Virus record (IMG/VR): IMGVR_UViG_3300044693_000272
Length of the DNA: 64,000 nt
Origin: a virus
Taxonomy: Duplodnaviria > Heunggongvirae > Uroviricota > Caudoviricetes
Strand: one strand, 5' to 3'
Part shown: positions 27,920 through 43,542 of the stretch, one piece after another
How positions within the stretch are numbered: the stretch's first letter is position 1
Layout of the letters: the number at the start of each line of letters is the position of its first letter
Made by a program: the position numbers and the translations under genes
Notes under the pieces: model-generated
The model's input: the letters and a program-made list of their open reading frames with translations, nothing else
The model's database searches: none
Told to the model about the DNA's origin: nothing

Positions 27920-28026
27920 TGGCAGGGGCACTAGGATTCGAACCTAGATCACGTCCTTGGGATGGAAGAAATGGTTGCTGAAAGGAAAGCCTTTTTACGT
28001 GTGCTGACCAATTACACCATACCCCT
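27920..28026 (-). ncRNA. tRNA-shaped RNA with CAGCAA helix module inserted in the anticodon arm
   Basis: intact acceptor/D/T arms and CCA; CGT-AAAAAGG-cttt-CCTT-TCAGCAA..CC-atcccaa-GGACG. Confidence 0.75.
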
Positions 28027-28035
28027 GTAAAACCT

Positions 28036-28365
28036 TTACTGCTTATCAGGATACTTGGAGTCAAGTTCCTCGATATAAGCAAGTGGGCTCATACCTGGTT
28101 CCAGATCATGAACCTTGCTAAAGCCGTTTTCTATCGTAATAAGTGAATCCTTAGGCTGGACAGCACCTGCATACTTTCGAAAACCAGGCTTATTCATCAG
28201 CTTACCTGTTGCTGGATCCACAGAACCCCACGCCGTCCAATCAGTTTTGCTCTGATTGTCAATCGGTTCTACAAAATACGATTTACCAGTGCGTTGCGAT
28301 ACAACGATGAATCTACCGGTTTCATCTGTATTTGTGAGAAACCGTTTGCGGAGGTCGTGGTCCAT
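28036..28365 (-). CDS. conserved hypothetical protein inside tRNA array
   Basis: TDETGRFIV.S.RTGK.YFVEPI, WGSVDPATGK, ENGF. Confidence 0.8.
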   Translation of the reverse strand: MDHDLRKRFLTNTDETGRFIVVSQRTGKSYFVEPIDNQSKTDWTAWGSVDPATGKLMNKPGFRKYAGAVQPKDSLITIENGFSKVHDLEPGMSPLAYIEELDSKYPDKQ

Positions 28366-28417
28366 ATAATTACCTTACGTTAAAAACTTGGCTGACTTAA
28401 ATGTCAGCCAAGGGTAT

Positions 28418-28536
28418 TGGTTGGGCCGCCAGGAATTGAACCTAGACTTCGTCCTTGTGCATGGATGAATTGAGTGCTGAACGGATCCTTATCAGGATCA
28501 CCTTCTTTACGCGTGCTACCGTTACACTACAGCCCA
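28418..28536 (-). ncRNA. tRNA-shaped RNA with CAGCA helix module inserted in the anticodon arm
   Basis: intact acceptor/D/T arms and CCA; CGT-AAAGAAGGT-GATCCT-gata-AGGATC-CGTTCAGCAC..CC-atgcacaa-GGACG. Confidence 0.75.
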
Positions 28537-29953: not shown

Positions 29954-30071
29954 TGGTTGATATTTTAAGTGCTATCCAATTACACCACAGAGGGGCTCAT
30001 CTCCTCCGCCAGGGTTCGAACCTGGACCTTTCATTTCTCAGATGATTAAAATAAATTTGCTGAAATCAACC
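29954..30071 (-). ncRNA. YrlA-like circularly permuted tRNA-mimic RNA
   Basis: GGTTGAT-TTCAGCAA..T arm (CCAGGTTCGAACCCTGG)..closed acceptor..D arm..AAAAT-ATCAACC. Confidence 0.75.
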
Positions 30072-30083
30072 TACGAGCACAAC

Positions 30084-30173
30084 TGGCAGTGGGAAGGAGA
30101 TTCGAACTCCTGGGGCCATTCCAGACCCTCCCGGCTTCCAACCAGGCGCCTTAAACCGCTCAGCCATCCCACT
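30084..30173 (-). tRNA. trnS: tRNA-Ser(GGA)
   Basis: loop TTGGAAG, long variable arm, G73-CCA. Confidence 0.95.
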
Positions 30174-30211
30174 ATATTCTTTTCAAATCGCCAAGCCACG
30201 AAGAAAGGCGA

Positions 30212-30358
30212 TTACGAGTGTACAGCGAAACCCTCTTCACGCGTCAAGACACTAGTCTCAGGTGAGACTTCAAGTGTGGACATATGCTCAGGGAGAGCCA
30301 GAGCGAGCGTATGCTGCGGTAATGCGGTAACATGCGCGAATGTCAGCGTCGTAAGCAT
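30212..30358 (-). CDS. small ORF (48 aa, MLTTLTFAHV...), possible leader peptide
   Basis: strong SD AAGGAGAG; not in ORF track. Confidence 0.45.
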   Translation of the reverse strand: MLTTLTFAHVTALPQHTLALALPEHMSTLEVSPETSVLTREEGFAVHS

Positions 30359-30387
30359 AATGCTCTCCTTGAGAAAATGGTTAAAAG

Positions 30388-30570
30388 TTATTCTTCGTTG
30401 AGGTATTCAACGAGGGTTTCACGACTGATTTCACCAGCTATGAATTGATTTTTCAACTCATTGAACTTGCGTGCTCGATCAGCTTGGTTGTATGTAACAC
30501 CATATTCAGCTGATACTTTAGCTTGCTTATCCACGCACTGATGAATCAGGTTTACTATGTCTTGTCTCAT
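30388..30570 (-). CDS. hypothetical protein
   Basis: SD GGAGG before MRQD. Confidence 0.65.
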   Translation of the reverse strand: MRQDIVNLIHQCVDKQAKVSAEYGVTYNQADRARKFNELKNQFIAGEISRETLVEYLNEE

Positions 30571-30713
30571 ATGGCCTCCAATATTAGCCATATGATATAT
30601 TCATTGTCACTGTGAATCAATACCTGCTATTGTTCATCTGCTCTCAAACGAACAGAAGCGCATTACATAGATTCTTCACAGGCGGTCGTAATATCCGTGC
30701 CTGGCATTGCAAT

Positions 30714-30805
30714 TGGCGGTAGGGGTGGGATTTGAACCCACGGAGCTTTTTAGGACTCGCCAGTTTTCGAGGCTGGAGCAATAAACCGGACTCTGCCACC
30801 CTACC
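30714..30805 (-). tRNA. trnS: tRNA-Ser(CGA)
   Basis: loop CTCGAAA, long variable arm, CCA. Confidence 0.95.
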
Positions 30806-31098
30806 ATAAACTTCATATACTTGAATGGTGTGCTGTTACGCCAAAAGGTGCTCATGCAGACTAAAACCCAACTCCTAGTATGGAATGCACGTTGGATCTC
30901 CGCTGTTGCAAAACGCTTGCCACGGTACTCAAAGCAACCATCCCCTCGTCTCTCACTATACTGCTGTGAGTTCGTTTGAGGTGGAAATTAGGTTTCTGGG
31001 GCAAGTACCCTAATTTTACTGCTCTCCCACGTCCAACGCCCTACTCTTTAAATGATGGGTGCTACTATCCCTACATCCCGTATCAAGTTATACGAAAC

Positions 31099-31199
31099 TG
31101 GAGCCGAGTCACGGAATCGAACCGCAGCGGGTTGGACCTGGGTCACCAGAAGACCAACTCTTATTGATTCGTACCAGCAGCCTACTGGACTCTCTCGGC
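31099..31199 (-). ncRNA. atypical tRNA-like RNA (101 nt) without a pairable anticodon stem
   Basis: acceptor GCCGAG/CTCGGC-T-CCA, T arm GCGGTTCGATTCCGT, long GTTGG..CCAAC stem. Confidence 0.6.
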
Positions 31200-31200
31200 A

Positions 31201-31413
31201 TTAAAACGTTGGATTGGGCGTGTTGCTTTGATCGTCACGCTCACGAATATGAGACATGAACATACAACCTTCAACGCCACAACCACAAATAACATGAAAC
31301 GTGCGACGAATCTCGTCTGCTTCTTTCACTTCTCCACGCTTCAAACGAGAATTGAAAACTTCCTCTTCATAGCGTGCTGCTGCCATATCAACTTGTGTTA
31401 AACGTCTTCCCAT
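31201..31413 (-). CDS. hypothetical protein
   Basis: 70 aa ORF, C.CG..GC motif. Confidence 0.65.
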   Translation of the reverse strand: MGRRLTQVDMAAARYEEEVFNSRLKRGEVKEADEIRRTFHVICGCGVEGCMFMSHIRERDDQSNTPNPTF

Positions 31414-31432
31414 TTTGGGTCTCGATTATATC

Positions 31433-31526
31433 TGGCAGAGAGTATGGGATTCGAACCCATGCGGCAGTTTATCACCACCCTAACGTCTTAGCAGGACGCC
31501 CCCTTGAACCTCTTGGGTAACTCTCT
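31433..31526 (-). tRNA. trnS: tRNA-Ser(GCT)
   Basis: loop CTGCTAA, long variable arm, CCA. Confidence 0.95.
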
Positions 31527-31536
31527 ATGGTAAAGC

Positions 31537-31614
31537 TGGAGCCCAGGGCTGGATTCGAACCAGCGGTTTGACTGCTTTGCAGGCAGTTGCCTTGGACCTC
31601 TCGGCCACCTGGGC
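31537..31614 (-). tRNA. trnC: tRNA-Cys(GCA)
   Basis: loop CTGCAAA, U73-CCA. Confidence 0.95.
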
Positions 31615-31623
31615 ATTGAAACT

Positions 31624-31920
31624 TTAACTTTTGATGAAAGTTTTGAATTCATCAAAGGTTTTAAACTGTTTTGCAACATTAAAGCATTCAGCACCAACCA
31701 CCTGAGCTTTATTCGATAAATCTTGTGCTAGAACTCTAAAGGTTGCTCGTGAAGCGCTACTCCATTTACCACGAACTACGCCTGTTTTTGGAAGCCCATT
31801 GCAGGATTCCCAATACCATAGCATCAAGTCATCATACGTGTAATCGTAACCCGGATGAATTGGGCCCACAAACTTTTGTTCGTGGTTGATGAACTGTATC
31901 TGGGTCTGTGCTCTTTTCAT
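31624..31920 (-). CDS. hypothetical protein
   Basis: SD GAAGAG before MKRAQ. Confidence 0.65.
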   Translation of the reverse strand: MKRAQTQIQFINHEQKFVGPIHPGYDYTYDDLMLWYWESCNGLPKTGVVRGKWSSASRATFRVLAQDLSNKAQVVGAECFNVAKQFKTFDEFKTFIKS

Positions 31921-32001
31921 GTTCTCTTCTAGAAGATGAGGCATCGTTCCCTTTTTGTTTCGTGTGTAATAACGAATAGTTGCTTCGCTTTAAACGTAAA
32001 T

Positions 32002-32228
32002 TGGTGGATCGGACGGGAATTGAACCCGCGTAGTTTCCGCTTACCTGGGCATTACTCCAGGCCCACACATAACTTGGAAACGCGCTTCCCTTGCTGTTTA
32101 GATGCCACCTCTTTCGAGGCCGCTATAGGTGCTTCTGCAACCGTGCGTTATGTGTGACTTGCGAATGGAACCCGTTTTACCGGATCTCCTTTCATTTTAG
32201 GAGTGCTTTTCCTCTCAGCCACCGACCC
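32002..32228 (-). ncRNA. 227-nt tRNA-like RNA with Ala identity (G3.U70, A73) and large structured insert
   Basis: GGGTCGG/CCGATCC-A-CCA, D arm, GCGGGTTCAATTCCCGT T arm, 10-bp CACACATAAC/GTTATGTGTG, GAAA-capped helix followed by AACAGCAA. Confidence 0.75.
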
Positions 32229-32271
32229 ATAACCATATGATTACGTCATTTGCAGCATCAGTCAAGACAAA

Positions 32272-32685
32272 TTACAGTTCTTTCAACATCAAAGGGCCGC
32301 CGCCCGTTTGATGAAGCACTGCAAAACCATTCTTTGCATACCACTGCACAAGATCAAAACCTTCAGCTTGTGATTCAGCAGTATCGGCTATCAACAAAAT
32401 AGCCTTTGCATCTTCATATCCAACGTCGTCTATAAAACGACCAAGTAGGAAATTTCCGTAGCCTTGACCTTTGAATTCATCGTATACGTTGACATTATTC
32501 AACATTGCAATGCGCGGATACTTTGCACGAATTTCGGCGATCAACGCGTCATTATCAATACCATGCTTTGAAAACCAATTAACTATCTGGACAGCATTGC
32601 TATTTACAACGTAGCCTTCAACTGTACCTTCATCTTCTTGAAGGTTTACCACAACAGGTCGATCATACAAACTATCAGCTTTCAT
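32272..32685 (-). CDS. GNAT acetyltransferase
   Basis: NVNV.DEFKGQGYG..LL, L.QWY.K.GF. Confidence 0.8.
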   Translation of the reverse strand: MKADSLYDRPVVVNLQEDEGTVEGYVVNSNAVQIVNWFSKHGIDNDALIAEIRAKYPRIAMLNNVNVYDEFKGQGYGNFLLGRFIDDVGYEDAKAILLIADTAESQAEGFDLVQWYAKNGFAVLHQTGGGPLMLKEL

Positions 32686-32750
32686 GAGTCTTCCTTTTTC
32701 ATTTGCTTATATGATGAGGCCATTTGTGGTGTTAGTCAAGACACATTCAT

Positions 32751-32828
32751 TGGAGCGGGTAGGGAGAGTCGAACTCCGCGATCTTCAGCTTGGAAGGCTG
32801 CTGGACGCCCCTTGTCCTGTCTACCCGC
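32751..32828 (-). tRNA. trnG: tRNA-Gly(TCC)
   Basis: loop CTTCCAA, U73-CCA. Confidence 0.95.
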
Positions 32829-32835
32829 ATCAATA

Positions 32836-33039
32836 CTACTTATTGTAAGGCACACGAACCATCTTATACTTGATGAACTGCGGAACAGTGTCAACAAATT
32901 CAGTTTCGCTTGCGATCACAAACGGTTTGTCAGTAAAGAACTGAAGCTTCCGCAATAATGGATTCGCCAGTAACTTGATTGGACTGCGATGCACCCAATG
33001 CCCATCTATTTTCGTATAATACTTGTTTTTCTTTTGCAT
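32836..33039 (-). CDS. hypothetical protein
   Basis: 67 aa ORF between tRNAs. Confidence 0.65.
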   Translation of the reverse strand: MQKKNKYYTKIDGHWVHRSPIKLLANPLLRKLQFFTDKPFVIASETEFVDTVPQFIKYKMVRVPYNK

Positions 33040-33046
33040 TTATTAG

Positions 33047-33141
33047 TGGTAGTCCCCCAGGGATTCGAACCCTGCCGTTGCAGCCCATCTAGCCGCTCTC
33101 CCAGGTGTATAAGGCCCGGCCGCTCACCAAAGCTGAGGACT
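33047..33141 (-). tRNA. atypical long-variable-arm tRNA with UAU anticodon
   Basis: AGTCCTC/GGGGACT-A-CCA; 3-bp D stem; CCGGGC-CTTATAC-ACCTGG; GCGGC/GCTGC variable stem. Confidence 0.7.
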
Positions 33142-33153
33142 ACTGTAAAACTT

Positions 33154-33227
33154 TGAGCGGGCACCGGGTTTCGAACCCGGGACTACAGCATGGCAAGCTG
33201 TCGTTTTACCAACAAAACTCTGCCCGC
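33154..33227 (-). tRNA. trnG: tRNA-Gly(GCC), 3' end TCAA
   Basis: loop TTGCCAT. Confidence 0.9.
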
Positions 33228-33237
33228 ATTGTAAAAC

Positions 33238-33300
33238 TGGATAGCTTTTTAACGAGTCAAATTAACGGTTTGATGTTTTTAAGTTTGCTGCAACTATCCA
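33238..33300 (-). ncRNA. minimal Y-RNA-like stem element
   Basis: TGGATAG-TTGCAGCAAA..AAAAAG-CTATCCA. Confidence 0.65.
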
Positions 33301-33308
33301 AAACTGAC

Positions 33309-33359
33309 TGGAAGCACATGGTCATGTTGGAAAATGAATGTGATTGCTGTAGGCTTCCA
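33309..33359 (-). ncRNA. minimal Y-RNA-like stem element
   Basis: TGGAAGC-CTACAGCAAT..ATGT-GCTTCCA. Confidence 0.65.
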
Positions 33360-33380
33360 AAAACTGGGTCTAAAATGAAT

Positions 33381-33473
33381 GTGTTTTGCTCCGCGTGTGA
33401 GGATCGAACTCACCTAGCCACTGATTAACAGTCAGGCCCATGCACCAAGCTCGGGTTTCGCGGAGCAAAACAC
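33381..33473 (-). tRNA. trnN: tRNA-Asn(GTT) with 15-bp extended acceptor stem, no CCA
   Basis: loop CTGTTAA; GTGTTTTGCTCCGCG/CGCGGAGCAAAACAC perfect inverted repeat. Confidence 0.8.
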
Positions 33474-33520
33474 ACTCTAAATCATATAGCTCTACCGCTG
33501 AGCTACATCGGAACAGAAAC

Positions 33521-34054
33521 TTATGCTACAAGCCCTAGAGCCTGCAAACCAGCCTCATGGTTAGCTTGCGTTGCTGCCAGTGCTACTGGACTAGACAATT
33601 CGCTAAAAGCGCGCTCATGCCATTCTTCGTCCTTCAAAATACGTTCAAACACACTACGAATATCAGCAGGTGCTTGCTCATCAGCTGCGATAACACGGAT
33701 CCGTTCAAGTCGCATACCTTCAGCATGCGCTGCTACTGCTGATCCGGTTTCGAAATCTGTGATACCATGCAACGTTTCTTTCCAATAACGTTGCTCTGCT
33801 TGATCAATCTGACCTGCATCAACTTCAATACCACGCGAGAGGAGCAATTGCTCAACCCATTCAGCATGCTGGCGTTCTTGTGCTGCAATCGCATTCAACA
33901 CCTTTACTTGATGTTGATCGCTTGCATATTGCTCTGCAAACCGTACAATGCGATTTGAGGCTGTTACTTCACCACGCCATTGCTTCAGCAACCAATCTTT
34001 TAAAAGTGTTTCATCTGCTTTAACTGCTTGCCACCATGTTTCAGAAGTTTTCAT
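33521..34054 (-). CDS. ferritin-like (di-iron four-helix) protein
   Basis: W.GE..A, QE.QH, HAE.MRL, DEEWH (two ExxH motifs). Confidence 0.85.
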   Translation of the reverse strand: MKTSETWWQAVKADETLLKDWLLKQWRGEVTASNRIVRFAEQYASDQHQVKVLNAIAAQERQHAEWVEQLLLSRGIEVDAGQIDQAEQRYWKETLHGITDFETGSAVAAHAEGMRLERIRVIAADEQAPADIRSVFERILKDEEWHERAFSELSSPVALAATQANHEAGLQALGLVA

Positions 34055-34374
34055 ATTCAGTTGTTATTGTTATTGATTCGAATAGCAATTAACACCAGGT
34101 TTGCACATTAACGCAGTGGAGAATGGACGCCAAGTGGTGATCAATCCACTCTTCCATTCGCTCTCACGACCAACCTTGCCTAGAAGTGGGAGGCGCGTCG
34201 GGGGTTCCCGATATTTGTAAGCGACTTAACTTCTGTGTGATACACTGTCCACACTCACCTATCCCACGTGAACAAGGGCTTTACCACTTGCAGTGCAAAA
34301 GCGTCCGACCACTTCCTGACGCTAATTACTATGCAAACTATTCTACTACTCTATTGTCGTTTTGCAACTAAAAC

Positions 34375-34449
34375 TGGCAGGGGATGTAGGAATCGAACCC
34401 ACGTCTGCGGATTTGGAGACCGATATTCTAGCCATTGAACTAATCCCCT
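34375..34449 (-). tRNA. trnW: tRNA-Trp(CCA)
   Basis: loop CTCCAAA, G73-CCA. Confidence 0.93.
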
Positions 34450-34465
34450 GTTGAAACTTGGTACT

Positions 34466-34732
34466 TCAAAAATCTATATCATCGGGGTCAAACCCCCACT
34501 TGAACTGTTTATCAGTTGGCTCGCAAACTAAAAGCCGATCCTTGAATTCCAACAAAAAAGCAAGACGTTCTTGCTCAGTTGAGAATCCTAAACCAATAAT
34601 TGCAGGCGAACAGGTATGACCGTTAAACCTTACATTCTCAGCTACTAACGCTTCACTGTCGCAAATCTTTAGGCGCGCCAATATTTCATCACGTAGCTTA
34701 CCAGCTGCTGAAAGTTTAATGTTGAATGTCAT
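34466..34732 (-). CDS. hypothetical protein
   Basis: ORF between tRNAs; GFSTEQERLAFLL weakly like the FKL-family motif. Confidence 0.6.
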   Translation of the reverse strand: MTFNIKLSAAGKLRDEILARLKICDSEALVAENVRFNGHTCSPAIIGLGFSTEQERLAFLLEFKDRLLVCEPTDKQFKWGFDPDDIDF

Positions 34733-34744
34733 TGTTATTGAAAT

Positions 34745-34820
34745 TGGTAGGGCCACTCAGATTCGAACTGAGACAAACGGATTAAGAGTCCGCTGTGCTA
34801 ACCATTGACACCATGACCCC
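34745..34820 (-). tRNA. trnK: tRNA-Lys(CTT)
   Basis: loop CTCTTAA, CCA. Confidence 0.95.
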
Positions 34821-34968
34821 ATTAAATATCATTGGATGTGATCTCCATCACATCACCTGTTGATCACGATGCTGAAGCTACTTGCACATATAACGCTGAG
34901 TAGGCGTCATGCACTTTTACTTACCGTGGGTGATCAGGTTAACCACATCGAATGATACTTGTGGAAAT

Positions 34969-35045
34969 TGGTGGGGGCACTGGGATTCGAACCCAAGCCT
35001 GACGGATTAAAAGTCCGCTGTGCTAACCGCTAACACCATACCCCC
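34969..35045 (-). tRNA. trnK: tRNA-Lys(TTT)
   Basis: loop CTTTTAA, CCA. Confidence 0.95.
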
Positions 35046-35437
35046 TTAGGGTTACTACAAATTCGCCTAAGGGGGTATGAGAATTTACTTCCCAACCCCC
35101 TCAGGTTTGCCAGATTTGTCACTTGACATGACAGTCTCTCCTGAGAAAGTTAAATTAAATGTGCTGAGGTTTTCCTACTCAGCTCCGTGTCGACCTATGT
35201 CACGGAGGACAGTGCTATGAACACAAACATTTAATCATGACAGCGTAGATCATGTTTGACTAGCACGAGTTCTAAGCTGTCGCCTAGGTCGGTTTAAACT
35301 GGTGAGTAATGCCACGCAGAATGCGACAGCTTCTATCGCTAAACTACGCGTTCATGTTAATAACCCCATGAACTGGTTCAAGCACTACTCGGTTACTGGT
35401 TGCGGACGTCGGAATCTAACTGCTCCGCGACAAATAT

Positions 35438-35514
35438 TGGATGCGGAAATTGGGAGTCGAACCCATTGTCACCAGCTTATGAGACTGGTATGTAAACCGT
35501 TTCACTCTTCCGCA
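35438..35514 (-). tRNA. trnM: tRNA-Met(CAT), initiator-like body
   Basis: loop CTCATAA, GAGTGAAACGGTTTAC D arm. Confidence 0.85.
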
Positions 35515-35524
35515 ATTGAAAACT

Positions 35525-35609
35525 TGGTACCTCGGGTCGGACTCGAACCGACACTCCTTTCGGAACTGGATTTTGAGTCCAGCGCGTCTACCACTTCCGC
35601 CACCGAGGC
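35525..35609 (-). tRNA. trnL: tRNA-Leu(CAA)
   Basis: loop CTCAAAA, long variable arm, CCA. Confidence 0.95.
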
Positions 35610-35755
35610 ATTTGTAAAAAAAGCACAGGCTGCGTATATCGCGCCACGTGCAAAAAGATGTCAGCTTGCTGATCAGGAGCCCTTTTACAGACCCCCGTGG
35701 TTTTGCACCACACGCACACGTTGAACAGCTAGTTTTATGTGAGCTGACAAAAATC

Positions 35756-35838
35756 TGGTGCCCGACAAGGGACTCGAACCCTCACCCCGAAGGACTGGAA
35801 CCTAAATCCAGCGCGTATGCCAATTTCGCCAATCGGGC
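35756..35838 (-). tRNA. trnL: tRNA-Leu(TAG)
   Basis: loop TTTAGGT, long variable arm, CCA. Confidence 0.95.
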
Positions 35839-36109
35839 AATGAATACAACGCATCCCCAGCACTGCTATGGTAGGAGAAGTGGTGTGTGCCGCCCAGAAT
35901 TGCTATGGTAGGACGACCGTTGTATTGAAACACTTTTATGCAAATTGCATTGAACGACGGTATGTCGTTCTGCGTGCAATTGAACGCTTGACAGAATCAA
36001 CTACAATGCCTTTCACGATGTCAATTACGACCGCTTTGATAATACCGAGAACAAATGACCACATATTCGTTTCACTTAGTTATTATAGTTGATGTGCAAA
36101 AATGTTCAC

Positions 36110-36186
36110 TGGTTGCGGGGAGCAGGAGTCGAACCTGATGTCTTCGGCTTATGAGACCGACGTGTAAACCGTTTCACTCCCCCGCA
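36110..36186 (-). tRNA. trnM: tRNA-Met(CAT), initiator-like
   Basis: loop CTCATAA, GCGGGG acceptor, A73-CCA. Confidence 0.9.
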
Positions 36187-36206
36187 ATCGTCGAAAGCGA
36201 GAATTC

Positions 36207-36282
36207 TGGTTGCCGGTATTGGATTTGAACCAATGACCTTCGCCTTATCAAGACGCTGCTGCTACCACTGAGCTAACCGGCA
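36207..36282 (-). tRNA. trnI: tRNA-Ile(GAT)
   Basis: loop TTGATAA, CCA. Confidence 0.92.
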
Positions 36283-36707
36283 ATATATTGAAAGCACTCG
36301 TTGCGTTCGCACAAGTCATCATGCAGCGCTTTACATTTCCACATAATGAACGAGGAGCTACGTCCCTAACTGTAACCAAGTCTGTCACCAATAAAACGTA
36401 GCATACTACTGGTACATATTGGCTCTGTTACAGCCCGTCAGCTTACGCTAACAGTTTGCCACATTATACACCTTTCGCTGTACAATGCAACACAAATTTA
36501 TTCACCACGTCGATCAAGCAATCTGTAGAATGCTTCTACTCGACGGTTATACGCTTTACGTGGCCCATGTATGTCACGGATACGGTAAAGTAATTCATCA
36601 GCACGCTTCCACTTACTGTGGCGCCTGCGTGTCTTGCAGAAGTATCGTTCTTGTTGCATCAATTTCCTCGTATTGTACAGCGTTTGGCATACAACACAAT
36701 TTAAAAG

Positions 36708-36782
36708 TGGTACCTAATAGTGGAATCGAACCACTGTCGCCCGATTATCAGTCGAGTGCTCTAGCCATTGAGCTAATCAGGT
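36708..36782 (-). tRNA. trnI: tRNA-Ile(GAT)
   Basis: loop CTGATAA, CCA. Confidence 0.95.
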
Positions 36783-36792
36783 ATTGAAATCT

Positions 36793-36867
36793 TGGTCGCT
36801 ACGGGTGGAATCGAACCACCATAACCTGCGTATGAAACAAGTGTCCTAGCCGTTGAACGACGTAGCG
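36793..36867 (-). tRNA. tRNA-CAT (elongator Met or Ile2)
   Basis: loop TTCATAC, C1-G72, CCA. Confidence 0.85.
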
Positions 36868-36872
36868 ATAAC

Positions 36873-36984
36873 AGGATGTACATAAATGGCTCCGGAGGCT
36901 GGGATCGAACCAGCGACCCGCGCATTAACAGTGCGCTGCACTACCGCTGTGCTACTCCGGAATTGATGATGCTGTAAACATCCT
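36873..36984 (-). ncRNA. Y-RNA-like stem enclosing an intact tRNA-Asn
   Basis: AGGATGT-TTACAGCAT..[tRNA]..TTTATGT-ACATCCT. Confidence 0.7.
36887..36961 (-). tRNA. trnN: tRNA-Asn(GTT)
   Basis: loop CTGTTAA, G73-CCA. Confidence 0.95.
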
Positions 36985-37049
36985 AAAACATTAAAAGGGT
37001 GAGCCTCGAGTTCCACGACGCCAGTCTAACATTCACCCTGAAAAACAAC

Positions 37050-37100
37050 TGGATGCACTTTCGTTTTCACCAAGAAAATTTAAGTTGCTATAGGCATCCA
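37050..37100 (-). ncRNA. minimal Y-RNA-like stem element
   Basis: TGGATGC-CTATAGCAAC..AAAGT-GCATCCA. Confidence 0.65.
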
Positions 37101-37152
37101 AAACCATTAATGCTCACCACTAAATATCAATATCTCTTTAAGGATGATACCG

Positions 37153-37770
37153 ATGAGCATGTACAAGCTATATTTACCAACTATTTCGCCAGAAACGAGC
37201 AATGAGATTATTGGTAAACTTGAATTTCTTTATAAGACAAACAAGGACAATTCAACGTTCATCCTACCTTGGAATTATCGAGAAGGAGCAAATATTGCTC
37301 TGTTTCTAAACTTCCCTCAATGTTCAGGTATTTTCCCGGAAGTTGATGCCATACTCGATTCTATGCCATGGCCTATGTGCTATTCACTCTCGGTGATAGC
37401 AAACCAAAATCCAAACAGCACTGCTTACATTGTACCGCATTATGATCGAAAACGCAATGTAGCGTTCAATTTTTTACTTGAACCTGGTGGTTCTCAAGTT
37501 GAGACTTGGTTTATAGCTCCTACAGAAGAGCAACGAGATCAACAAGCCATACATGATTCTTTTGAAATTTCGGAATCATATATTCAAGAAGCAAATAACT
37601 GGTGTCTGTTTGATACCGCACGCTTACACGGTGTTTCAAACATCGAAACCACTCGCTTTATCATTAGCGCAACCACCATTGATCGATCAATCACATTAAG
37701 TGAGATCGTTAATCAACTAGGCAATTTAACTACAAGCATCAAACCAGATACTACAGTCAAACGACTATAG
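37153..37770 (+). CDS. 2OG-Fe(II) oxygenase-like protein, only plus-strand gene in the array
   Basis: IVPHYDR (HxD), NF.L, LFDTARLHGVSN, RFIIS. Confidence 0.7.
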   Translation: MSMYKLYLPTISPETSNEIIGKLEFLYKTNKDNSTFILPWNYREGANIALFLNFPQCSGIFPEVDAILDSMPWPMCYSLSVIANQNPNSTAYIVPHYDRKRNVAFNFLLEPGGSQVETWFIAPTEEQRDQQAIHDSFEISESYIQEANNWCLFDTARLHGVSNIETTRFIISATTIDRSITLSEIVNQLGNLTTSIKPDTTVKRL

Positions 37771-37780
37771 CCAATAAACT

Positions 37781-37856
37781 TGGCTCCGCCCGTTGGATTC
37801 GAACCAACCTCATCCGGTTAACAGCCGGGGGTACTCACCGAGAATACGAGAGCGGA
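37781..37856 (-). tRNA. trnN: tRNA-Asn(GTT)
   Basis: loop CTGTTAA, G73-CCA. Confidence 0.92.
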
Positions 37857-37867
37857 ATTGAAACTTG

Positions 37868-37943
37868 TGGTGCCGCCCCGCGGGATCGAACCGCGCCCTC
37901 AGGATTTTCAGTCCCGCGCTTCCACCAGGTTAGCTTGAACGGC
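37868..37943 (-). tRNA. trnF: tRNA-Phe(GAA)
   Basis: loop CTGAAAA, CCA. Confidence 0.95.
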
Positions 37944-37954
37944 ATTGGAATACT

Positions 37955-38030
37955 TGGAGTCGCGTGTGGGACTTGAACCCTACATTTGCGGCTTGAAAGG
38001 CCACCGTCCTTACCTTTAGACGAACACGAC
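37955..38030 (-). tRNA. trnE: tRNA-Glu(TTC)
   Basis: loop CTTTCAA, CCA. Confidence 0.9.
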
Positions 38031-38040
38031 ATTGTAAATC

Positions 38041-38117
38041 TGGTGGAGACAGTGGGAATCAAACCCACCACAGACGCATTGCAAGTGCATCTCGCCACTC
38101 TTGGTACATGTGCCCCC
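38041..38117 (-). tRNA. trnA: tRNA-Ala(TGC)
   Basis: loop CTTGCAA, G3.U70, CCA. Confidence 0.9.
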
Positions 38118-38242
38118 AGAATTTGTTGTGCGTTTTTCTATGCGAAGGTCGCACCCCCTGCATTCCACCTTGAGACGCAAGCGTCTGTTTCACTGAGAAA
38201 CAATGCTATGTTCGCTACTCATAGCACCAAGTAATTTAAAAC

Positions 38243-38318
38243 TGGCGCCCCGTAGGGGGTTCGAACCCCTGACTTCCCGATAGACAGTCGAGCACTCTAG
38301 CCGCTGAGTTAACGAGGC
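38243..38318 (-). tRNA. trnD: tRNA-Asp(GTC)
   Basis: loop CTGTCTA, G73-CCA. Confidence 0.95.
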
Positions 38319-38327
38319 AATGAAACT

Positions 38328-38403
38328 TGGAGGGTCCTGGGTGAATCGAACACACCATCCTCGCGTTCGTAGCACGAGATTCTCTCCATTGAACTAAGGA
38401 CCC
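38328..38403 (-). tRNA. trnR: tRNA-Arg(ACG)
   Basis: loop CTACGAA, CCA. Confidence 0.93.
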
Positions 38404-38421
38404 ATCATGTAAAACAAAACT

Positions 38422-38497
38422 TGGTCACCCCGGACAGACTCGAACTGTCGCTCCATGATCCCAAATCACGTGTGCTTGCCGCTAACACTACGGGGAG
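38422..38497 (-). tRNA. trnP: tRNA-Pro(TGG)
   Basis: loop TTTGGGA, CCA. Confidence 0.9.
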
Positions 38498-38570
38498 ATA
38501 AGCGAATTGGACGCTCTGGATTGGCTTGCGCGAATCGTCAAACGTTTAACCCAACCGTTACTATTAAACT

Positions 38571-38645
38571 TGGCGACCCTGCGGAGAATCGAACTCCGTT
38601 CCCCAGATAGACAGTCTAGGATAATAACCAATATAAGACAAGGCC
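38571..38645 (-). tRNA. trnD: tRNA-Asp(GTC)
   Basis: loop CTGTCTA, G73-CCA. Confidence 0.93.
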
Positions 38646-38721
38646 AAAAACACATACCCGGCTGAGAACCTTACGCATGCCTTAACATGCGTGCCCGTCT
38701 TAACGGGGTATGTGTAGTAGA

Positions 38722-38877
38722 TGGTGGAGACATTTGGAATCGAACCAAACTAGCCTACTTGCTCAATCCCTGTTCTATGCAACAGTGCTATCCATGGTCA
38801 ACTGTCACACGTCGGAATGCTATTGCTTTCAACGGCAGCCTATGCTGCTGCTGGGCTTCCCAGTGCCCTATATCTCC
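38722..38877 (-). ncRNA. 156-nt tRNA-like RNA with multi-hairpin insert in place of the anticodon arm
   Basis: GGAGATA/TGTCTCC-A-CCA, GGGC/GCCC D stem, TTTGGTTCGATTCCAAA T arm. Confidence 0.75.
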
Positions 38878-38885
38878 GTAAAACT

Positions 38886-38973
38886 TGGTGAAGAGTGAAG
38901 GAATCGAACCTAATAACCAACCACCTGTCTATCAGGGTAACGGGTTTACAATCCGCTGACAGGAACACTCTCC
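38886..38973 (-). ncRNA. D-armless tRNA-Tyr(GTA)-like RNA
   Basis: GGAGAGTG/CACTCTTC-A-CCA, loop TTGTAAA, variable arm, no D hairpin. Confidence 0.6.
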
Positions 38974-38991
38974 ATTGAAACTTTATCGCAA

Positions 38992-39141
38992 TTTGCTTTG
39001 CTCATCTGGGTGGATTCGAATCCACCATTTTATCCGAACATTAGGCGCCATTCTTGATCATATCGGCCCGATCAAGTGTGGCTGTTCACTTCTGCACATT
39101 GTCGGCCGTGACTCAAACGCAATTCAGATGATTAAAGCAAA
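38992..39141 (-). ncRNA. 150-nt RNA with tRNA T arm stacked on a ~15-bp terminal stem, no CCA
   Basis: TTTGCTTT-aa-TCATCTG / CAGATGA-gc-AAAGCAAA; GGTGGATTCGAATCCACC. Confidence 0.6.
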
Positions 39142-39152
39142 CTACTGAATTA

Positions 39153-39237
39153 TGGTGGGGTAGGATGGATTCGAACCAACTCACCCGAAGGAACGGATTT
39201 ACAGTCCGCCGCCACTCTCCAACTTGACCGCTACCCC
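39153..39237 (-). tRNA. trnY: tRNA-Tyr(GTA)
   Basis: loop CTGTAAA, variable arm, CCA. Confidence 0.93.
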
Positions 39238-39302
39238 ATAAAACTTACAAATGAAACGCAAGTGCCTTTATAGCTGTTATCCTCTCGTTTCATCTTTATT
39301 AC

Positions 39303-39392
39303 TGGCGGAGGCGGTGAGATTCGAACTCACGGAGCTTTTTAAAACTCGTCGGTTTTCAAGACCGGTGCAATAAACCACTCTGCCACGCCTCC
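39303..39392 (-). tRNA. trnS: tRNA-Ser(TGA)
   Basis: loop CTTGAAA, long variable arm, CCA. Confidence 0.95.
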
Positions 39393-39398
39393 ATATTC

Positions 39399-39472
39399 TG
39401 GCTGAGGGACTAGGGCTCGAACCTAGGCTACATGAGTCAAAGTCATGGGTGCTACCATTACACTATCCCCCA
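39399..39472 (-). tRNA. trnQ: tRNA-Gln(TTG)
   Basis: loop CTTTGAC, U1-A72, CCA. Confidence 0.95.
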
Positions 39473-39746
39473 ACAAGCGCTTACTAAGTTGGTTACGCTT
39501 TTTCAACGCACGTGGTATTGAGCCACGCCCAACTTAGTAAGCGTCTGCATAACGGGGCAACATCAACTTCATGCTGCTGCGTTATGCAGATGTGTCTAGG
39601 CCTAATTGCCCTAGACTGACGAATTTTATACGTTCGCTCGCAAACGAACCTTCATCCTCGCCGCCGCCCATTTAGCCAGTTTTTACGTGCGCGCCTGGGA
39701 TCTCGTTTCCCGTCTACACGTTACTGCAAAGAACATAGGTGCTCTT

Positions 39747-39781
39747 AAACACGAAACCCCGGAAACTTTCGTTTACCGGGG
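39747..39781 (-). terminator. intrinsic terminator (attenuator candidate) ahead of the tRNA array
   Basis: CCCCGG-13 nt-CCGGGG-TTTCGTGTTT. Confidence 0.7.
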
Positions 39782-39808
39782 TGCCTTGTTGTTTAAGAAT
39801 TGCGCTTA

Positions 39809-39958
39809 CTATGCGCTACTCCCTTGGCACCCCTTACTATCTGACAGACTAATGCTTTTCACTTCGCGATTACCATTACCGAGCCATGTTGCGGCGGGCA
39901 TGGACAAGCAATGTCCTTGCTGCTGCTCTGGTCGATAAAAGTTAAACGAAGTTTGCAT
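39809..39958 (-). CDS. putative leader peptide (49 aa, MQTSFNFYRPEQQQ...)
   Basis: ATG with GAGGGA SD between promoter and terminator. Confidence 0.5.
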   Translation of the reverse strand: MQTSFNFYRPEQQQGHCLSMPAATWLGNGNREVKSISLSDSKGCQGSSA

Positions 39959-40013
39959 TTTTCCCTCAAATAGGAGTTAATCATTACGCTGTGTTCATCA
40001 CAGCATGTTACGT

Positions 40014-40042
40014 ACTCTACATCTACTACAACGGCAAGTCAA
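40014..40042 (-). promoter_or_regulatory. sigma70-like promoter for the tRNA array
   Basis: TTGACT-N17-TAGAGT. Confidence 0.65.
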
Positions 40043-40106
40043 CAAACTTTTTGTTAACCCACCAACACTTACTTGTTGCAGAAAAACAACACTCTACAAC
40101 TACAAT

Positions 40107-40354
40107 TCTATTTAGCAAAGTCGGGTGGAGGACTTCACTTAACCCTGTTTCTACTTCCACCATGAGCAGCGTTTCGTTATCACTGCAACGTCCAAGTAAC
40201 AAGGGCGTAAGGATTCGCCACCAACTGTTAACTACAACGTTTTCTAATTCTATTTAGCAAACTGGCTGAAGTCAACAACTTTTTCTAACTTTCTTGCCAC
40301 TTGCTAAACAAACGCTGCCGTTTCCTACAGCGTGTTCACATTATATTTAGCAAA
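40107..40354 (-). promoter_or_regulatory. three TTTGCTAAATA motifs (late-promoter-like)
   Basis: copies at 40107-40119, 40249-40261, 40344-40354; a fourth at 44523-44535. Confidence 0.55.
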
Positions 40355-40466
40355 CAATTTGGCGTCAATTATTTCTACCAACTTGCTTGCCACTTTGTTG
40401 GTGCGTTGTTCTGCAACAACATATGTCACACTATATGGCATGCCAATCTACCTGTCAACAATTATT

Positions 40467-41495
40467 TTATTCTGTTACTTTGTAGTGGCTCGTGACCGTT
40501 CCTTTGTCAGCATGCCCACGTTGATGCTCATGGCGCCACCATCGAACCCCACCACATCTGAGTTTGCATTCCCAATGTAGCGGTTTAGTTTCTTCCCATT
40601 CATGCATACAACCGCTAAACTTCGCTTCTTTATTATGACAGAAGTGCCCACGCACATCATGCAACCGTCGCCAAACACCAGGACCAGCAATCAACTTACG
40701 CAATCTTGGTATTGGATTCAACTTCAGGTGAATGACTGAATGCTTTAATAATGGCCTTACTTGGTGTCGCACAAGTGCTTGAGCATGACCAACTTCCTTC
40801 AGGTAGATGTCACCTCTAGTGCGATTCAAAAACAACAAGAACGCAATGATGTTGCGTAAGTCACCTGCTTGTCCATACGCAAGTTCGTCCATTATACGAT
40901 CTTGAATTTGTGGTAAGCAGCACAATTCTATCGAATGATTTTCGCGTAACGATCTCAACCCTTCTTTATCTTGTTCATTCAGGAAAACATCAGCTGCCGA
41001 GCCCCAATACATTGCATCTAAAGCGATACGCGATATACGCGTCTTCTGGCAGAATTCTAATTCCTGTTGAAACGAAAACGGTTGGAACAGTTTGTATTGC
41101 AAGGGGAGAACTTCTGGAATCATCTCTTCGTCGTTCGAATTGACGATTACACGAACAAGCGGACCTGTTATCAGGTAACCCAACCGAAAGTCGCTGATCA
41201 CATCAGGTTCTTTACAGGTTACGGCTTTGAACAGCACTCGAGAATCAAACTCTATCCAAGTTTTCTCAAACGGTGGAATAGCGAAATCTTGCGCGTCAGC
41301 AATGATACGCGGCATCGTTCTGATCATCTCACCCACATATTCGGTTGCTTGATCATCAAACACAAAGCGATGCGCTTGCCGTAAATGGTCGCACGTGGTT
41401 TCGTGAAAATGTGGTTCTTCAATTTCTCGGCGAACAGATGTTGCCAAGAACATATCAGCTAGTGTCGGCTTCCGCTTGACTTTGCTAACCACCAT
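40467..41495 (-). CDS. conserved phage protein with R.H.VRGH motif and Cys/His insert (paralogue of 26125-27111)
   Basis: RRLHDVRGHF..WWRHEHQRG...G.V...Y.V. Confidence 0.8.
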   Translation of the reverse strand: MVVSKVKRKPTLADMFLATSVRREIEEPHFHETTCDHLRQAHRFVFDDQATEYVGEMIRTMPRIIADAQDFAIPPFEKTWIEFDSRVLFKAVTCKEPDVISDFRLGYLITGPLVRVIVNSNDEEMIPEVLPLQYKLFQPFSFQQELEFCQKTRISRIALDAMYWGSAADVFLNEQDKEGLRSLRENHSIELCCLPQIQDRIMDELAYGQAGDLRNIIAFLLFLNRTRGDIYLKEVGHAQALVRHQVRPLLKHSVIHLKLNPIPRLRKLIAGPGVWRRLHDVRGHFCHNKEAKFSGCMHEWEETKPLHWECKLRCGGVRWWRHEHQRGHADKGTVTSHYKVTE

Positions 41496-41588
41496 GGCCC
41501 CCGTAGTAATCTCTAATTCATTCTACTACGAACGCCAACACGAGTAAAGGCACAAATGAATAGGGGGCCAATTGGCCCCCTAGTTTGA

Positions 41589-43463: not shown

Positions 43464-43542
43464 TTATTGTTATTATTCGGAGTGGAGTAAAGCTTGACCC
43501 GAATTATAACAGTATGGCAAGCTAGACGTGCAAATTATTTTC

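What the first reader, a model, noticed from the sequence alone, without database searches (positions are those of the whole stretch)
27920..28536. Inverse-permuted Y/tRNA hybrids: CCA-ended tRNAs with the CAGCA module grafted into the anticodon arm
Seen: both genes have normal acceptor, D and T arms and CCA, but are 107 and 119 nt long. Both are interrupted at the same point, after CGT of the 5' anticodon strand, by A-rich strand-helix-loop-helix-TCAGCA, followed by a small CC-loop-GG hairpin and ACG. The 28418 insert (AGGATCC-GTTCAGCA / GGTGATCCT) closely matches the terminal helix of the YrlA-like RNA at 48739 (AGGATCC-TTACAGCA / TAGGATCCT). Inference: this has the same overall shape as YrlA (tRNA elbow plus handle) but is opened at the acceptor end, so it could be aminoacylated or CCA-bearing. 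I do not know of this permutation being described. The alternative is a conserved non-canonical intron in a tRNA.
Basis: partly seen in the sequence, partly recalled or inferred. Interest (0 to 1): 0.86.

Follow-up and report, generated by a model that had tools for sequence, protein, structure and literature searches.

The report
tRNA genes carrying Y-RNA-like handle
Two genes in this giant phage encode tRNAs that look normal except that the anticodon stem is interrupted by a conserved hairpin-plus-CAGCAA "handle"; across many large phages this handle travels with a Ro60-shaped protein (DUF2828), so they are most likely protein-docked tRNA chimeras of an undescribed kind, not broken tRNAs.

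Summary
On the minus strand, 28026-27920 (107 nt) and 28536-28418 (119 nt) score as tRNA (43.9 and 40.8 bits). Each has a 31- or 44-nt structured insert after the third pair of the anticodon stem.

The insert is a loop-closed copy of the stem-plus-(N)CAGCAA handle that about ten other small RNAs in this window carry at their ends. Homologues occur in many uncultured jumbo phages, in Synechococcus phage BUCT-ZZ01 and in KVP40-like vibriophages, where they are annotated only as "pseudo-tRNA". The hairpin and both halves of the split anticodon stem covary.

These RNAs are not YrlA in the strict sense. No TROVE/Ro60 gene was found, the Rsr motif GNCGAA(N)G is absent, and there is no Rfam hit.

All five complete handle-bearing phage genomes I tested encode a DUF2828+DUF7788 protein. 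My AlphaFold model of it matches only Ro60/Rsr structures. In 7 of 10 DUF2828 loci inspected, handles lie directly upstream of the gene.

Best reading (about 0.55): unspliced tRNA/handle chimeras that dock a Ro60-like ring. Main rival (about 0.25): a protein-dependent mini-intron or processing signal.

This scan has found the same RNA-protein pairing before on other DNA. I found no paper that describes it.

The parts
27920..28026 (-). Gene A: 107-nt tRNA-bodied RNA with G73 and encoded CCA. The anticodon loop AUCCCAA (anticodon CCC, glycine-type) sits on a split 5-bp stem, CGU+CC paired with GGACG.
   Evidence: Rfam tRNA 43.9 bits; model R1 84 bits; direct reading.
27966..27996 (-). Insert of gene A, 31 nt: an A-rich strand, a short hairpin AAAGG-CUUU-CCUUU, the box CAGCAA, and a U-rich spacer. 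It is a shortened handle, missing 13 nt compared with the G001 orthologue.
   Evidence: Alignment A2; G001 orthologue at 399516-399635.
27975..27985 (-). 11-nt handle motif CCUUUCAGCAA of gene A. It has U3, C6, C9, A10 and A11, the positions conserved in Dictyostelium Class I RNAs.
   Evidence: Direct reading; motif description in PMC7919456.
27955..27965 (-). Anticodon mini-hairpin of gene A: CC, a 7-nt loop with U33, CCC and A37, then GG.
   Evidence: The anticodon stem halves (helices 3 and 5) show compensatory changes across homologues.
28418..28536 (-). Gene B: 119-nt tRNA-bodied RNA with A73 and encoded CCA. The split stem CGU+CC paired with GGACG carries an 8-nt loop, AUGCACAA.
   Evidence: Rfam tRNA 40.8 bits; model R1 113.7 bits; direct reading.
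28465..28508 (-). Insert of gene B, 44 nt: the A-rich strand AAAGAAGGU, hairpin P1, CGUUCAGCAC, and the spacer UCAAUUCAU.
28484..28499 (-). Hairpin P1 of the gene B handle: GAUCC-UGAUAA-GGAUC. The loop, CUG..AAG with its closing nucleotides, joins what are the 3' end (CUGU) and the 5' start (AAG) in linear handle RNAs.
   Evidence: All 6 pairs of this hairpin show changes on both sides in 23 homologues. Terminal signatures are from PMC7919456.
48740..48873 (-). Sibling RNA: a circularly permuted tRNA-Leu-like RNA. Its terminal helix GGAUCC and the box CCUUACAGCAA are the open form of the gene B handle.
29955..49266 (-). Region holding the other open-form handle RNAs of the window: 29955-30071, 33239-33299, about 33300-33360, 36873-36984 (a whole tRNA-Asn nested inside), 37050-37100, 44565-44848, 44890-45086, 48884-48935 and 49156-49266.
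   Evidence: Helix-plus-CAGCA scan; folds.

Best explanation
Genes A and B are tRNA-bodied members of a large phage family of "handle" RNAs. The handle is a 5-8 bp stem followed by an unpaired box, NNUNNCAGCAA, opposite an A-rich strand.

In most family members the stem joins the RNA's two ends. In A and B it is closed by a loop, and the whole handle is grafted into the 5' strand of the anticodon stem between nucleotides 29 and 30. The 3' strand stays continuous. The RNA can therefore still fold as an L-shaped tRNA with a CCA end and an anticodon hairpin, with the handle projecting as an extra arm.

I propose that the handle stays in the mature RNA and is the docking site for the phage's Ro60-shaped ring protein (Pfam DUF2828+DUF7788), as the stem of a Y RNA is for Ro60. 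On this view the tRNA part plays the role of the tRNA-like effector module of YrlA. It would either tether the ring to tRNA-recognising machinery or place a particular tRNA species under the ring's control.

Shown here:
- the anatomy
- the covariation
- the family's distribution
- the co-occurrence and adjacency with DUF2828
- the Ro60-like fold of DUF2828

Inferred:
- binding of the handle by the protein
- retention of the handle in the mature RNA
- the biological role
For: **Structure.** In 23 diverse homologues 99% of cells are paired, and 23 of 27 pairs have changes on both sides, including 6 of 6 in the insert hairpin and 4 of 5 in the two halves of the split anticodon stem. Slid controls give 35-50% pairing.

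**Selection.**
- The KVP40 tRNA-Asn-type member (Pseudo-3) keeps its insert in all 49 Vibrio phage records.
- It is almost invariant where the flanks differ by about 12%.
- At about 75% identity the acceptor and T stems have changed by compensatory substitutions, while the handle persists.

**Same handle in non-intron contexts.**
- It occurs as stand-alone RNAs of 40-60 nt.
- It occurs around whole tRNAs.
- It occurs at the ends of permuted tRNAs.

**Protein partner.**
- DUF2828 scores over its Pfam cut-off in 5 of 5 complete handle-bearing genomes (G001, G007, KVP40, nt-1, BUCT-ZZ01) and in 2 of 3 fragments.
- It is absent from T4, RsoM2USA and 14 cellular control genomes.
- Handles lie directly upstream of the DUF2828 gene on the same strand in 7 of 10 loci inspected: BUCT-ZZ01, G007, and the contigs of P0099, P0027, P0034, P0047 and P0065.
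- In BUCT-ZZ01 the two insert-bearing tRNAs lie less than 200 nt downstream of that gene.

**Fold.** The AlphaFold2 model of the G001 protein has pLDDT 82 and pTM 0.78. Its 13 best PDB matches are all Ro60, Rsr or TROVE structures (E from 1e-8 to 1e-4, TM mostly 0.5-0.6 (0.40 for the top hit, 2nvo)), followed by vWA domains.

**Loop signature.** The hairpin loop keeps the signature CUG..AAG, which forms the 3' end and 5' start of linear handle RNAs. That fits recognition of the intact handle.

**Precedent.** M. smegmatis YrlA is cut by RNase P and gains CCA in vivo (PMC4201824).
Against:
- The DUF2828 gene is not in the window. In G001 it lies about 100 kb from the tRNA array. Its presence in the window's own genome is inferred from the relative.
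- The anticodon hairpins look like those of working tRNAs. They have 7-nt loops with U33 and a purine at 37. Different anticodons occur: GUC, UCU, UCC, CCC, CAU, GUU.
- Discriminators often fit the anticodon: U73 with UCC twice, G73 with GUC.
- A large arm at position 29/30 would probably clash with the ribosome (my own knowledge), which argues for removal.
- The insertion point varies (28/29, 29/30, or inside the loop) in KVP40, BUCT-ZZ01 and L182, as it does for introns.
- BUCT-ZZ01 has nearly the same insert in two different tRNA bodies, which also fits a mobile insert.
Confidence: 0.55

Rival explanations
1. The insert is a protein-dependent mini-intron or processing signal. The handle marks where the RNA is cut and rejoined, possibly on the DUF2828 ring with a phage RNA ligase. 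The products would be ordinary tRNAs, tRNA-Gly(CCC) from gene A. The same machinery would mature the circularly permuted tRNA genes through a circular or two-piece intermediate, as the bulge-helix-bulge system does in Archaea and in the red alga Cyanidioschyzon.
For: - After conceptual removal of the insert, the tRNA is canonical: a 5-bp stem CGUCC/GGACG with a 7-nt loop.
- Both halves of the split stem covary.
- The anticodon changes while the body stays the same, as in L001 (GUC) versus L158 (UCU).
- Insertion positions vary.
- Permuted genes break exactly in the handle's loop and carry ACCA plus a 3-5 nt linker before G1.
- The complete relative G001 encodes an Rnl2-type RNA ligase.
- A T4 Rnl1-type ligase lies 1.3 kb from DUF2828 in L396.
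- Gene A would supply an anticodon (CCC) that the window's 49 regular tRNAs lack.
Against: - No bulge-helix-bulge geometry is present.
- G001 has no EndA or RtcB homologue.
- No intron-less allele was found, whether by pattern search or among 49 orthologous vibriophage loci.
- Insert-bearing tRNAs duplicate canonical tRNAs in the same arrays: Asp in every array examined, Asn in KVP40, and Gly-UCC in G001.
- Gene B, KVP40_b and the RNA at 48740 have 8-nt loops.
- The handle also exists alone and around complete tRNAs, where there is nothing to splice.
- The insert is as conserved as the exons.
Confidence: 0.25
2. They are decoys or shields against tRNA-targeting host defences. The tRNA body with a real anticodon loop would attract anticodon nucleases or similar enzymes. 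The extra arm, with or without its protein, would block cleavage or trap the enzyme.
For: - The anticodon triplet turns over quickly on an unchanged body (GUC to UCU).
- These tRNAs are redundant with canonical tRNAs.
- Anticodons of the kinds attacked by known anticodon nucleases occur: Asp, Asn, CAU and Arg-UCU (target list from my own knowledge).
- Phage tRNAs are known to counter such defences (PMC11464382 and PMC11555353, listed).
Against: Purely circumstantial. This reading does not explain the stand-alone handles or the link to DUF2828 unless it is merged with the best explanation. No defence system is identified here.
Confidence: 0.1
3. They are genuine YrlA-type Y RNAs that bind a TROVE-domain Ro60/Rsr, from the host or the phage.
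For: - They have a tRNA-like elbow plus a stem handle.
- The partner candidate has a Ro60-like fold.
Against: - No TROVE match was found in 14 records, five of them complete genomes.
- The Rsr motif GNCGAA(N)G is absent.
- No Rfam Y-family hit was found.
- The acceptor end is open with CCA, and an anticodon hairpin is kept.
Confidence: 0.05
4. They are decaying tRNA pseudogenes hit by a selfish insertion and have no function, as the GenBank label "pseudo-tRNA" implies.
For: - tRNAscan-type tools flag them as low-scoring pseudo-forms (PMC3468402).
- Gene A has lost half of its hairpin.
- Gene B has an 8-nt loop and no orthologue in G001.
Against: - Purifying selection is strong, and compensatory changes occur across very distant phages.
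- The family is spread from a T4-like cyanophage to 520-kb megaphages.
Confidence: 0.05

Closest known systems
YrlA-type bacterial and phage Y RNAs with Ro60/Rsr (Chen et al. 2014, PMC4201824; structure preprint 10.1101/312249)
   Same: - A tRNA-like elbow is joined to a protein-binding stem.
- The partner candidate has the Ro60 ring-plus-vWA fold.
- The M. smegmatis YrlA even acquires a CCA end after RNase P cleavage.
   Different: - The protein belongs to Pfam DUF2828/DUF7788, not TROVE.
- The handle box is NNUNNCAGCAA, not GNCGAA(N)G.
- Here the tRNA is not permuted: the acceptor is open with encoded CCA.
- A full anticodon hairpin is kept.
- The handle is loop-closed and sits inside the anticodon stem.
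- There is no Rfam match.
Dictyostelium Class I RNAs (Kjellin et al. 2021, PMC7919456)
   Same: - A short stem of about 6 bp joins the 5' and 3' ends.
- An unpaired 11-nt motif lies next to the 5' strand, with U3, C6, C9, A10 and A11 conserved.
- The RNAs start with AAG and end with CUGU.
- The middle is variable.
- The RNA at 48740 reads CCUUACAGCAA and ends CUGU.
   Different: - Class I RNAs are eukaryotic, stand-alone RNAs of 42-65 nt, reported as unique to dictyostelids and bound by the RRM protein Rnp1A.
- They are not fused to tRNAs.
- In genes A and B the stem is loop-closed.
- No Rfam family other than tRNA-type ones reached E <= 5 in the window.
"tRNA-Pseudo-3/4/5" of Vibrio phage KVP40 and "tRNA-OTHER" in related records (NC_005083; PMC3468402; PMC1524935)
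   Same: They are the same family. Model R1 scores them at 36-77 bits. They have a tRNA body, a handle in the anticodon arm and an encoded CCA.
   Different: - They are annotated only as low-scoring pseudogenes, with the GCA or UGC of the handle box misread as the anticodon.
- I found no analysis of the insert.
- Box variants occur: CUGCAA, CGGCAA, CCAGCA.
Non-canonical introns and permuted or split tRNA genes of Archaea and Cyanidioschyzon merolae (bulge-helix-bulge, EndA plus RtcB)
   Same: - Short inserts occur at non-canonical places in the anticodon arm, including 29/30.
- Permuted genes have termini that coincide with the insert position.
- One signal is used in several topologies.
   Different: - No bulge-helix-bulge motif is present.
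- No EndA or RtcB was found.
- The hosts are bacteria.
- The signal also occurs as a free small RNA next to a Ro60-like gene.
T4 stable RNAs species 1 and 2 (rnaC, rnaD) in the tRNA cluster
   Same: They are small stable RNAs of unknown function, encoded inside a phage tRNA array, with tRNA-like 3' parts (annotation and sequence).
   Different: - T4 has no DUF2828 and no R1-type member.
- Any resemblance of rnaD (a hairpin followed by ACAGCAG) is weak and untested.

Membership tests
tRNA (Rfam RF00005) | Acceptor, D and T arms scoring above the gathering threshold | tested here: met
   43.9 and 40.8 bits against a threshold of 29.
tRNA (Rfam RF00005) | Contiguous 5-bp anticodon stem with a 7-nt loop | tested here: not met
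   The stem is split by 31 or 44 nt after pair 3. The loop is 7 nt in gene A but 8 nt in gene B.
YrlA / Y RNA | Rsr-binding stem with the conserved GNCGAA(N0-1)G motif, formed by the 5' and 3' ends | tested here: not met
   The motif, as given in PMC4201824, is absent. The box here is (N)CAGCA(A/C) and the stem is loop-closed.
YrlA / Y RNA | Encoded with a TROVE-domain Ro60/Rsr | tested here: not met
   PF05731 was absent from 14 records, including 5 complete genomes, while the control genomes gave hits. A Ro60-fold protein of another Pfam family is present instead.
YrlA / Y RNA | Match to the Rfam Y-RNA or YrlA models | tested here: not met
   No such hit at E <= 10 over 27800-28700, or at E <= 5 over 29900-49400.
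YrlA / Y RNA | Acceptor-like stem closed by a loop (permuted, no free CCA) | tested here: not met
   Both genes have an open 7-bp acceptor stem, a discriminator and encoded CCA.
Handle (ACAGCAA) RNAs associated with DUF2828 | A 5-8 bp stem directly followed by an unpaired NNUNNCAGCAA box, with an A-rich strand opposite | tested here: met
   Gene A has CCUUUCAGCAA after the stem AAAGG/CCUUU. Gene B has CCGUUCAGCAC after GAUCC/GGAUC. The hairpin covaries at 6 of 6 pairs.
Handle (ACAGCAA) RNAs associated with DUF2828 | Genome encodes a DUF2828+DUF7788 (Ro60-fold) protein | tested here: inconclusive
   The gene is not in the 64-kb window, and no whole genome is held for it. It is present in the 82%-identical complete relative G001 and in 4 of 4 other complete handle-bearing genomes.
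Handle (ACAGCAA) RNAs associated with DUF2828 | Physical binding of the handle by the protein | not testable with these tools
   The only evidence is co-occurrence, adjacency and fold.
Archaeal-type spliced tRNA intron | Bulge-helix-bulge at the junctions, with EndA endonuclease and RtcB ligase | tested here: not met
   The junction is a three-way junction with no 3-nt bulges. PF01974 and PF01139 are absent from G001.
Group I intron in tRNA | Self-splicing core of about 200 nt or more, located in the anticodon loop | tested here: not met
   The inserts are 31 and 44 nt, lie in the stem, and give no Rfam intron hit.
Dictyostelium Class I RNA | Terminal stem joining the ends, the 11-nt motif, an AAG start, a CUGU end, and a stand-alone RNA of about 60 nt | tested here: inconclusive
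   The motif positions fit gene A and the RNA at 48740, and the loop keeps CUG..AAG. However, the RNA is permuted and fused to a tRNA, and no Rfam hit was found.

The most novel reading that the evidence does not exclude
The handle is the recognition signal of a tRNA cut-and-rejoin (or circularise-and-open) pathway in viruses of bacteria, organised on a Ro60-like ring (DUF2828) together with phage RNA ligases. That would make genes A and B the first tRNA genes in the bacterial world with protein-spliced introns. It would also explain the circularly permuted tRNA genes found in the same phages.
Probability: 0.2. Interest if true: 0.92.

Novelty: new variant of a known kind. Interest (0 to 1): 0.72.

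Why it matters
- It gives a concrete reading to "pseudo-tRNAs" that have been in the genomes of KVP40-like, Aeromonas and cyano-T4 phages for twenty years.
- It enlarges the Ro60/Y-RNA world with a second protein family (DUF2828, more than 6,000 homologues) and a new RNA handle.
- It shows that a real tRNA, with a CCA end and an anticodon, can be wired to such a ring. That makes questions about Ro-type RNA surveillance, tRNA repair and phage-host tRNA warfare testable in cultured systems: KVP40 on Vibrio, BUCT-ZZ01 on Synechococcus PCC 7942.
- The handle's match to the Dictyostelium Class I RNA signature also offers a lead to the unknown function of those RNAs.

Tried and rejected
- **TROVE/Ro60 (PF05731).** Absent from all 14 records tested. 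This first led me to doubt the Y-RNA idea, until DUF2828 was tested.
- **Splicing and repair enzymes in G001 and the fragments.** No RtcB and no EndA. Tpt1 gave only a weak sub-threshold hit. An Rnl2-type ligase is present, but it is not specific to this system.
- **T4 57B, annotated "RNA ligase" beside the KVP40, nt-1 and T4 tRNA clusters.** It is Acb1, the anti-CBASS phosphodiesterase, and is irrelevant.
- **The 109-aa ORF between genes A and B.** It has no Pfam family. Its RsoM2USA homologue is not next to tRNAs.
- **Intron-less alleles.** The specific pattern gave 0 hits. The loose pattern gave 1 unrelated tRNA among 117 hits.
- **Known small ribozymes and riboswitches.** No Rfam hit. Comparison by eye with hammerhead, hairpin, pistol and k-turn motifs gave nothing consistent.
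- **A closing helix between the first and last insert nucleotides.** It is present in some lineages (AAGAA/UUCUU in G001; GUAUUA/UAAUAC in the Asp group) but is not universal.
- **The KVP40 genome paper.** I tried it under the PMC id I recalled (PMC180978), but nothing is held under that id.

Full report
**What is there**

The window is a tRNA-rich stretch of a roughly 520-kb phage. ARAGORN finds 49 tRNAs, all on the minus strand. The nearest GenBank phage is only weakly similar. Neither finding gene is called by ARAGORN.

The Rfam tRNA model matches both genes above its gathering score, at 43.9 and 40.8 bits. The acceptor, D and T arms are intact, and there is a long local insertion after the third pair of the anticodon stem.

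Read on the minus strand:
- Gene A (28026-27920, 107 nt) is acceptor / D arm / CGU / 31-nt insert / CC-AUCCCAA-GG / ACG / T arm / G73-CCA.
- Gene B (28536-28418, 119 nt) has the same plan with a 44-nt insert and an 8-nt loop, AUGCACAA.

Each insert consists of an A-rich strand, a hairpin, the box (U)UCAGCA(A/C) and a U-rich spacer. The gene B hairpin and box match the terminal helix and box of the permuted tRNA-Leu-like RNA at 48740-48873.

**It is a conserved family**

- A pattern taken from the two genes found 11 true homologues in IMG/VR.
- A second pattern found further non-permuted members and also circularly permuted tRNA genes with the same module.
- A metagenome scan added 19 more.
- A covariance model (R1) separates members, at 67-144 bits, from ordinary tRNAs at 50 bits or less.

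The anticodons seen are GUC, UCU, UCC, CCC, CAU and GUU.

The complete 523,836-bp relative G001 (82% identical) has the positional orthologue of gene A, with anticodon UCC and a full hairpin. Gene A has lost 13 nt of that hairpin, and gene B is absent from G001.

Cultured phages carry the family too:
- Synechococcus phage BUCT-ZZ01 has two tandem members with nearly the same insert in two different tRNA bodies, CAU and Asn-GUU.
- KVP40 and nt-1 vibriophages have at least five and three members.
- In KVP40 three of these are annotated "tRNA-Pseudo-3/4/5". The phi-pp2 paper calls them low-score pseudo-forms with GCA or TGC anticodons, which misreads the handle box as the anticodon (PMC3468402).

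**Structure and selection**

On 23 diverse members 99% of cells are paired, and 23 of 27 pairs show changes on both sides. These include all six pairs of the insert hairpin and four of the five pairs in the two halves of the split anticodon stem (for example CGU/ACG to CUU/AAG or ACG/CGU; CC/GG to GC/GC or UGC/GCA). Slid controls give 35-50% pairing. The alignment was fitted to the model, which favours it somewhat.

The KVP40 Pseudo-3 orthologue keeps its insert in all 49 Vibrio phage records. It is nearly invariant where the flanks diverge. At about 75% identity the acceptor and T stems have been rebuilt by compensatory changes, while the handle and the Asn anticodon loop persist. These are functional RNAs, not debris.

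**Is it YrlA?**

It is not, in the strict sense.
- The published Rsr-site motif is GNCGAA(N0-1)G (PMC4201824), and the box here is different.
- No Rfam Y family is hit.
- No TROVE gene is found in 14 records, five of them complete genomes.

**The partner**

Notes from earlier runs of this scan pointed to Pfam DUF2828. I tested that lead.
- DUF2828 is present, over its cut-off, in 5 of 5 complete handle-bearing genomes and in 2 of 3 fragments.
- It is absent from T4, RsoM2USA and 14 cellular control genomes. T4 and RsoM2USA have no R1-type gene; I did not test them for open-form handles.
- Handles sit directly upstream of the DUF2828 gene, on the same strand, in BUCT-ZZ01 (three copies, with the insert-bearing tRNAs just downstream of the gene), in G007 (six copies), and in the contigs of five other homologues.
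- In KVP40, nt-1 and G001 the RNAs lie in the tRNA array instead.

The protein is DUF2828 plus DUF7788, with a weak vWA signal. Its AlphaFold2 model (26-sequence alignment, pLDDT 82, pTM 0.78) has Ro60, Rsr or TROVE structures as its 13 best PDB matches, followed by vWA domains. No paper in the library discusses the function of DUF2828.

**Class I RNA signature**

The handle also fits the published signature of Dictyostelium Class I RNAs: a terminal stem, an 11-nt motif with U3, C6, C9, A10 and A11, a start of AAG and an end of CUGU (PMC7919456). The hairpin loops of the closed form read CUG..AAG, which is the two termini joined.

**Intron or retained arm?**

Several points favour removal of the insert:
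- The product without the insert would be a canonical tRNA.
- The anticodon turns over on a constant body, as in L001 (GUC) versus L158 (UCU).
- Discriminators often fit the anticodon.
- Insertion points vary.
- Permuted genes break in the handle loop and carry ACCA plus a short linker.
- Ligases are present.

Other points favour retention:
- The handle exists alone and around whole tRNAs.
- It is as conserved as the exons.
- No intron-less allele was found.
- Canonical tRNAs with the same anticodon sit in the same arrays for the Asp-type members, for Asn in KVP40 and for Gly-UCC in G001; gene A's CCC anticodon has none in the window.
- Several members have 8-nt loops.
- There is no EndA or RtcB.

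I put the retained, protein-docking chimera at about 0.55 and a protein-dependent splicing or processing signal at about 0.25. RNA from infected cultures would settle this.

**Verdict**

The handle is Y-like and has a Ro60-fold partner candidate, but the RNAs are not YrlA, and the partner is a different protein family.

The scan has met this pairing before on other DNA. I re-derived the key links independently here. In the papers I could search it is undescribed.

Noticed in passing
L147 (minus strand, about 3850-4110 of the reversed locus), L152 2945-3140, L156 10350-10650, L171: Circularly permuted tRNA genes in phage contigs. The order is handle strand, CAGCA box, anticodon hairpin, T arm, acceptor 3' strand, ACCA, a 3-5 nt linker, acceptor 5' strand, D arm, CGU, A-rich strand, handle strand. 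Anticodons are UAG, GCU, GAA and AUG.
   Followed up: partly
L001 3375-3495 versus L158 1313-1432: Nearly identical insert-bearing tRNA bodies (G73) differ almost only in the anticodon triplet, GUC versus UCU. This suggests fast anticodon switching that is independent of acceptor identity.
   Followed up: no
L376 2108-2230 (KVP40 record about 181.6 kb): A strong R1 match (73 bits), an insert-bearing tRNA, overlaps the annotated CDS KVP40.0319 ("hypothetical protein"). That ORF is probably a mis-call over an RNA gene. A second member at L376 2495-2620 is unannotated.
   Followed up: partly
window 14694-14812 (-): A 119-nt tRNA-like gene (Rfam tRNA 33.3 bits) with two extra hairpins between the D and T arms and a CCA end. 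It has no CAGCA box and seems to be a different kind of odd tRNA.
   Followed up: no
window 38722-38877 (-): A 156-nt tRNA-shaped RNA (R1 31 bits) with a multi-hairpin middle containing CAGCAGCAGCA.
   Followed up: no
L396 (contig of homologue P0034): The DUF2828 gene with its upstream handle lies beside WGR and PARP-domain genes and 1.3 kb from a T4 Rnl1-type RNA ligase. This is a possible RNA-repair neighbourhood.
   Followed up: no
L001, L003, L008, L013, L221, L235 (several arrays): A 91-95 nt tRNA with anticodon UAU and a long variable arm recurs in the tRNA arrays of unrelated jumbo-phage contigs, as it does in this window at about 33047-33141.
   Followed up: no
L378 3054-3172 (T4 rnaD): T4 stable RNA species 2 contains a hairpin GAUG..CAUC followed by ACAGCAG, and a UUCC-CUGAGUAA-GGAA hairpin. 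Both faintly recall the handle, but T4 lacks DUF2828, so this may be coincidence.
   Followed up: no
window 16587-16672 (-): ARAGORN calls an 86-nt tRNA-Cys(GCA), which is unusually long for Cys. I did not check whether the GCA is a real anticodon or a handle-like box.
   Followed up: no
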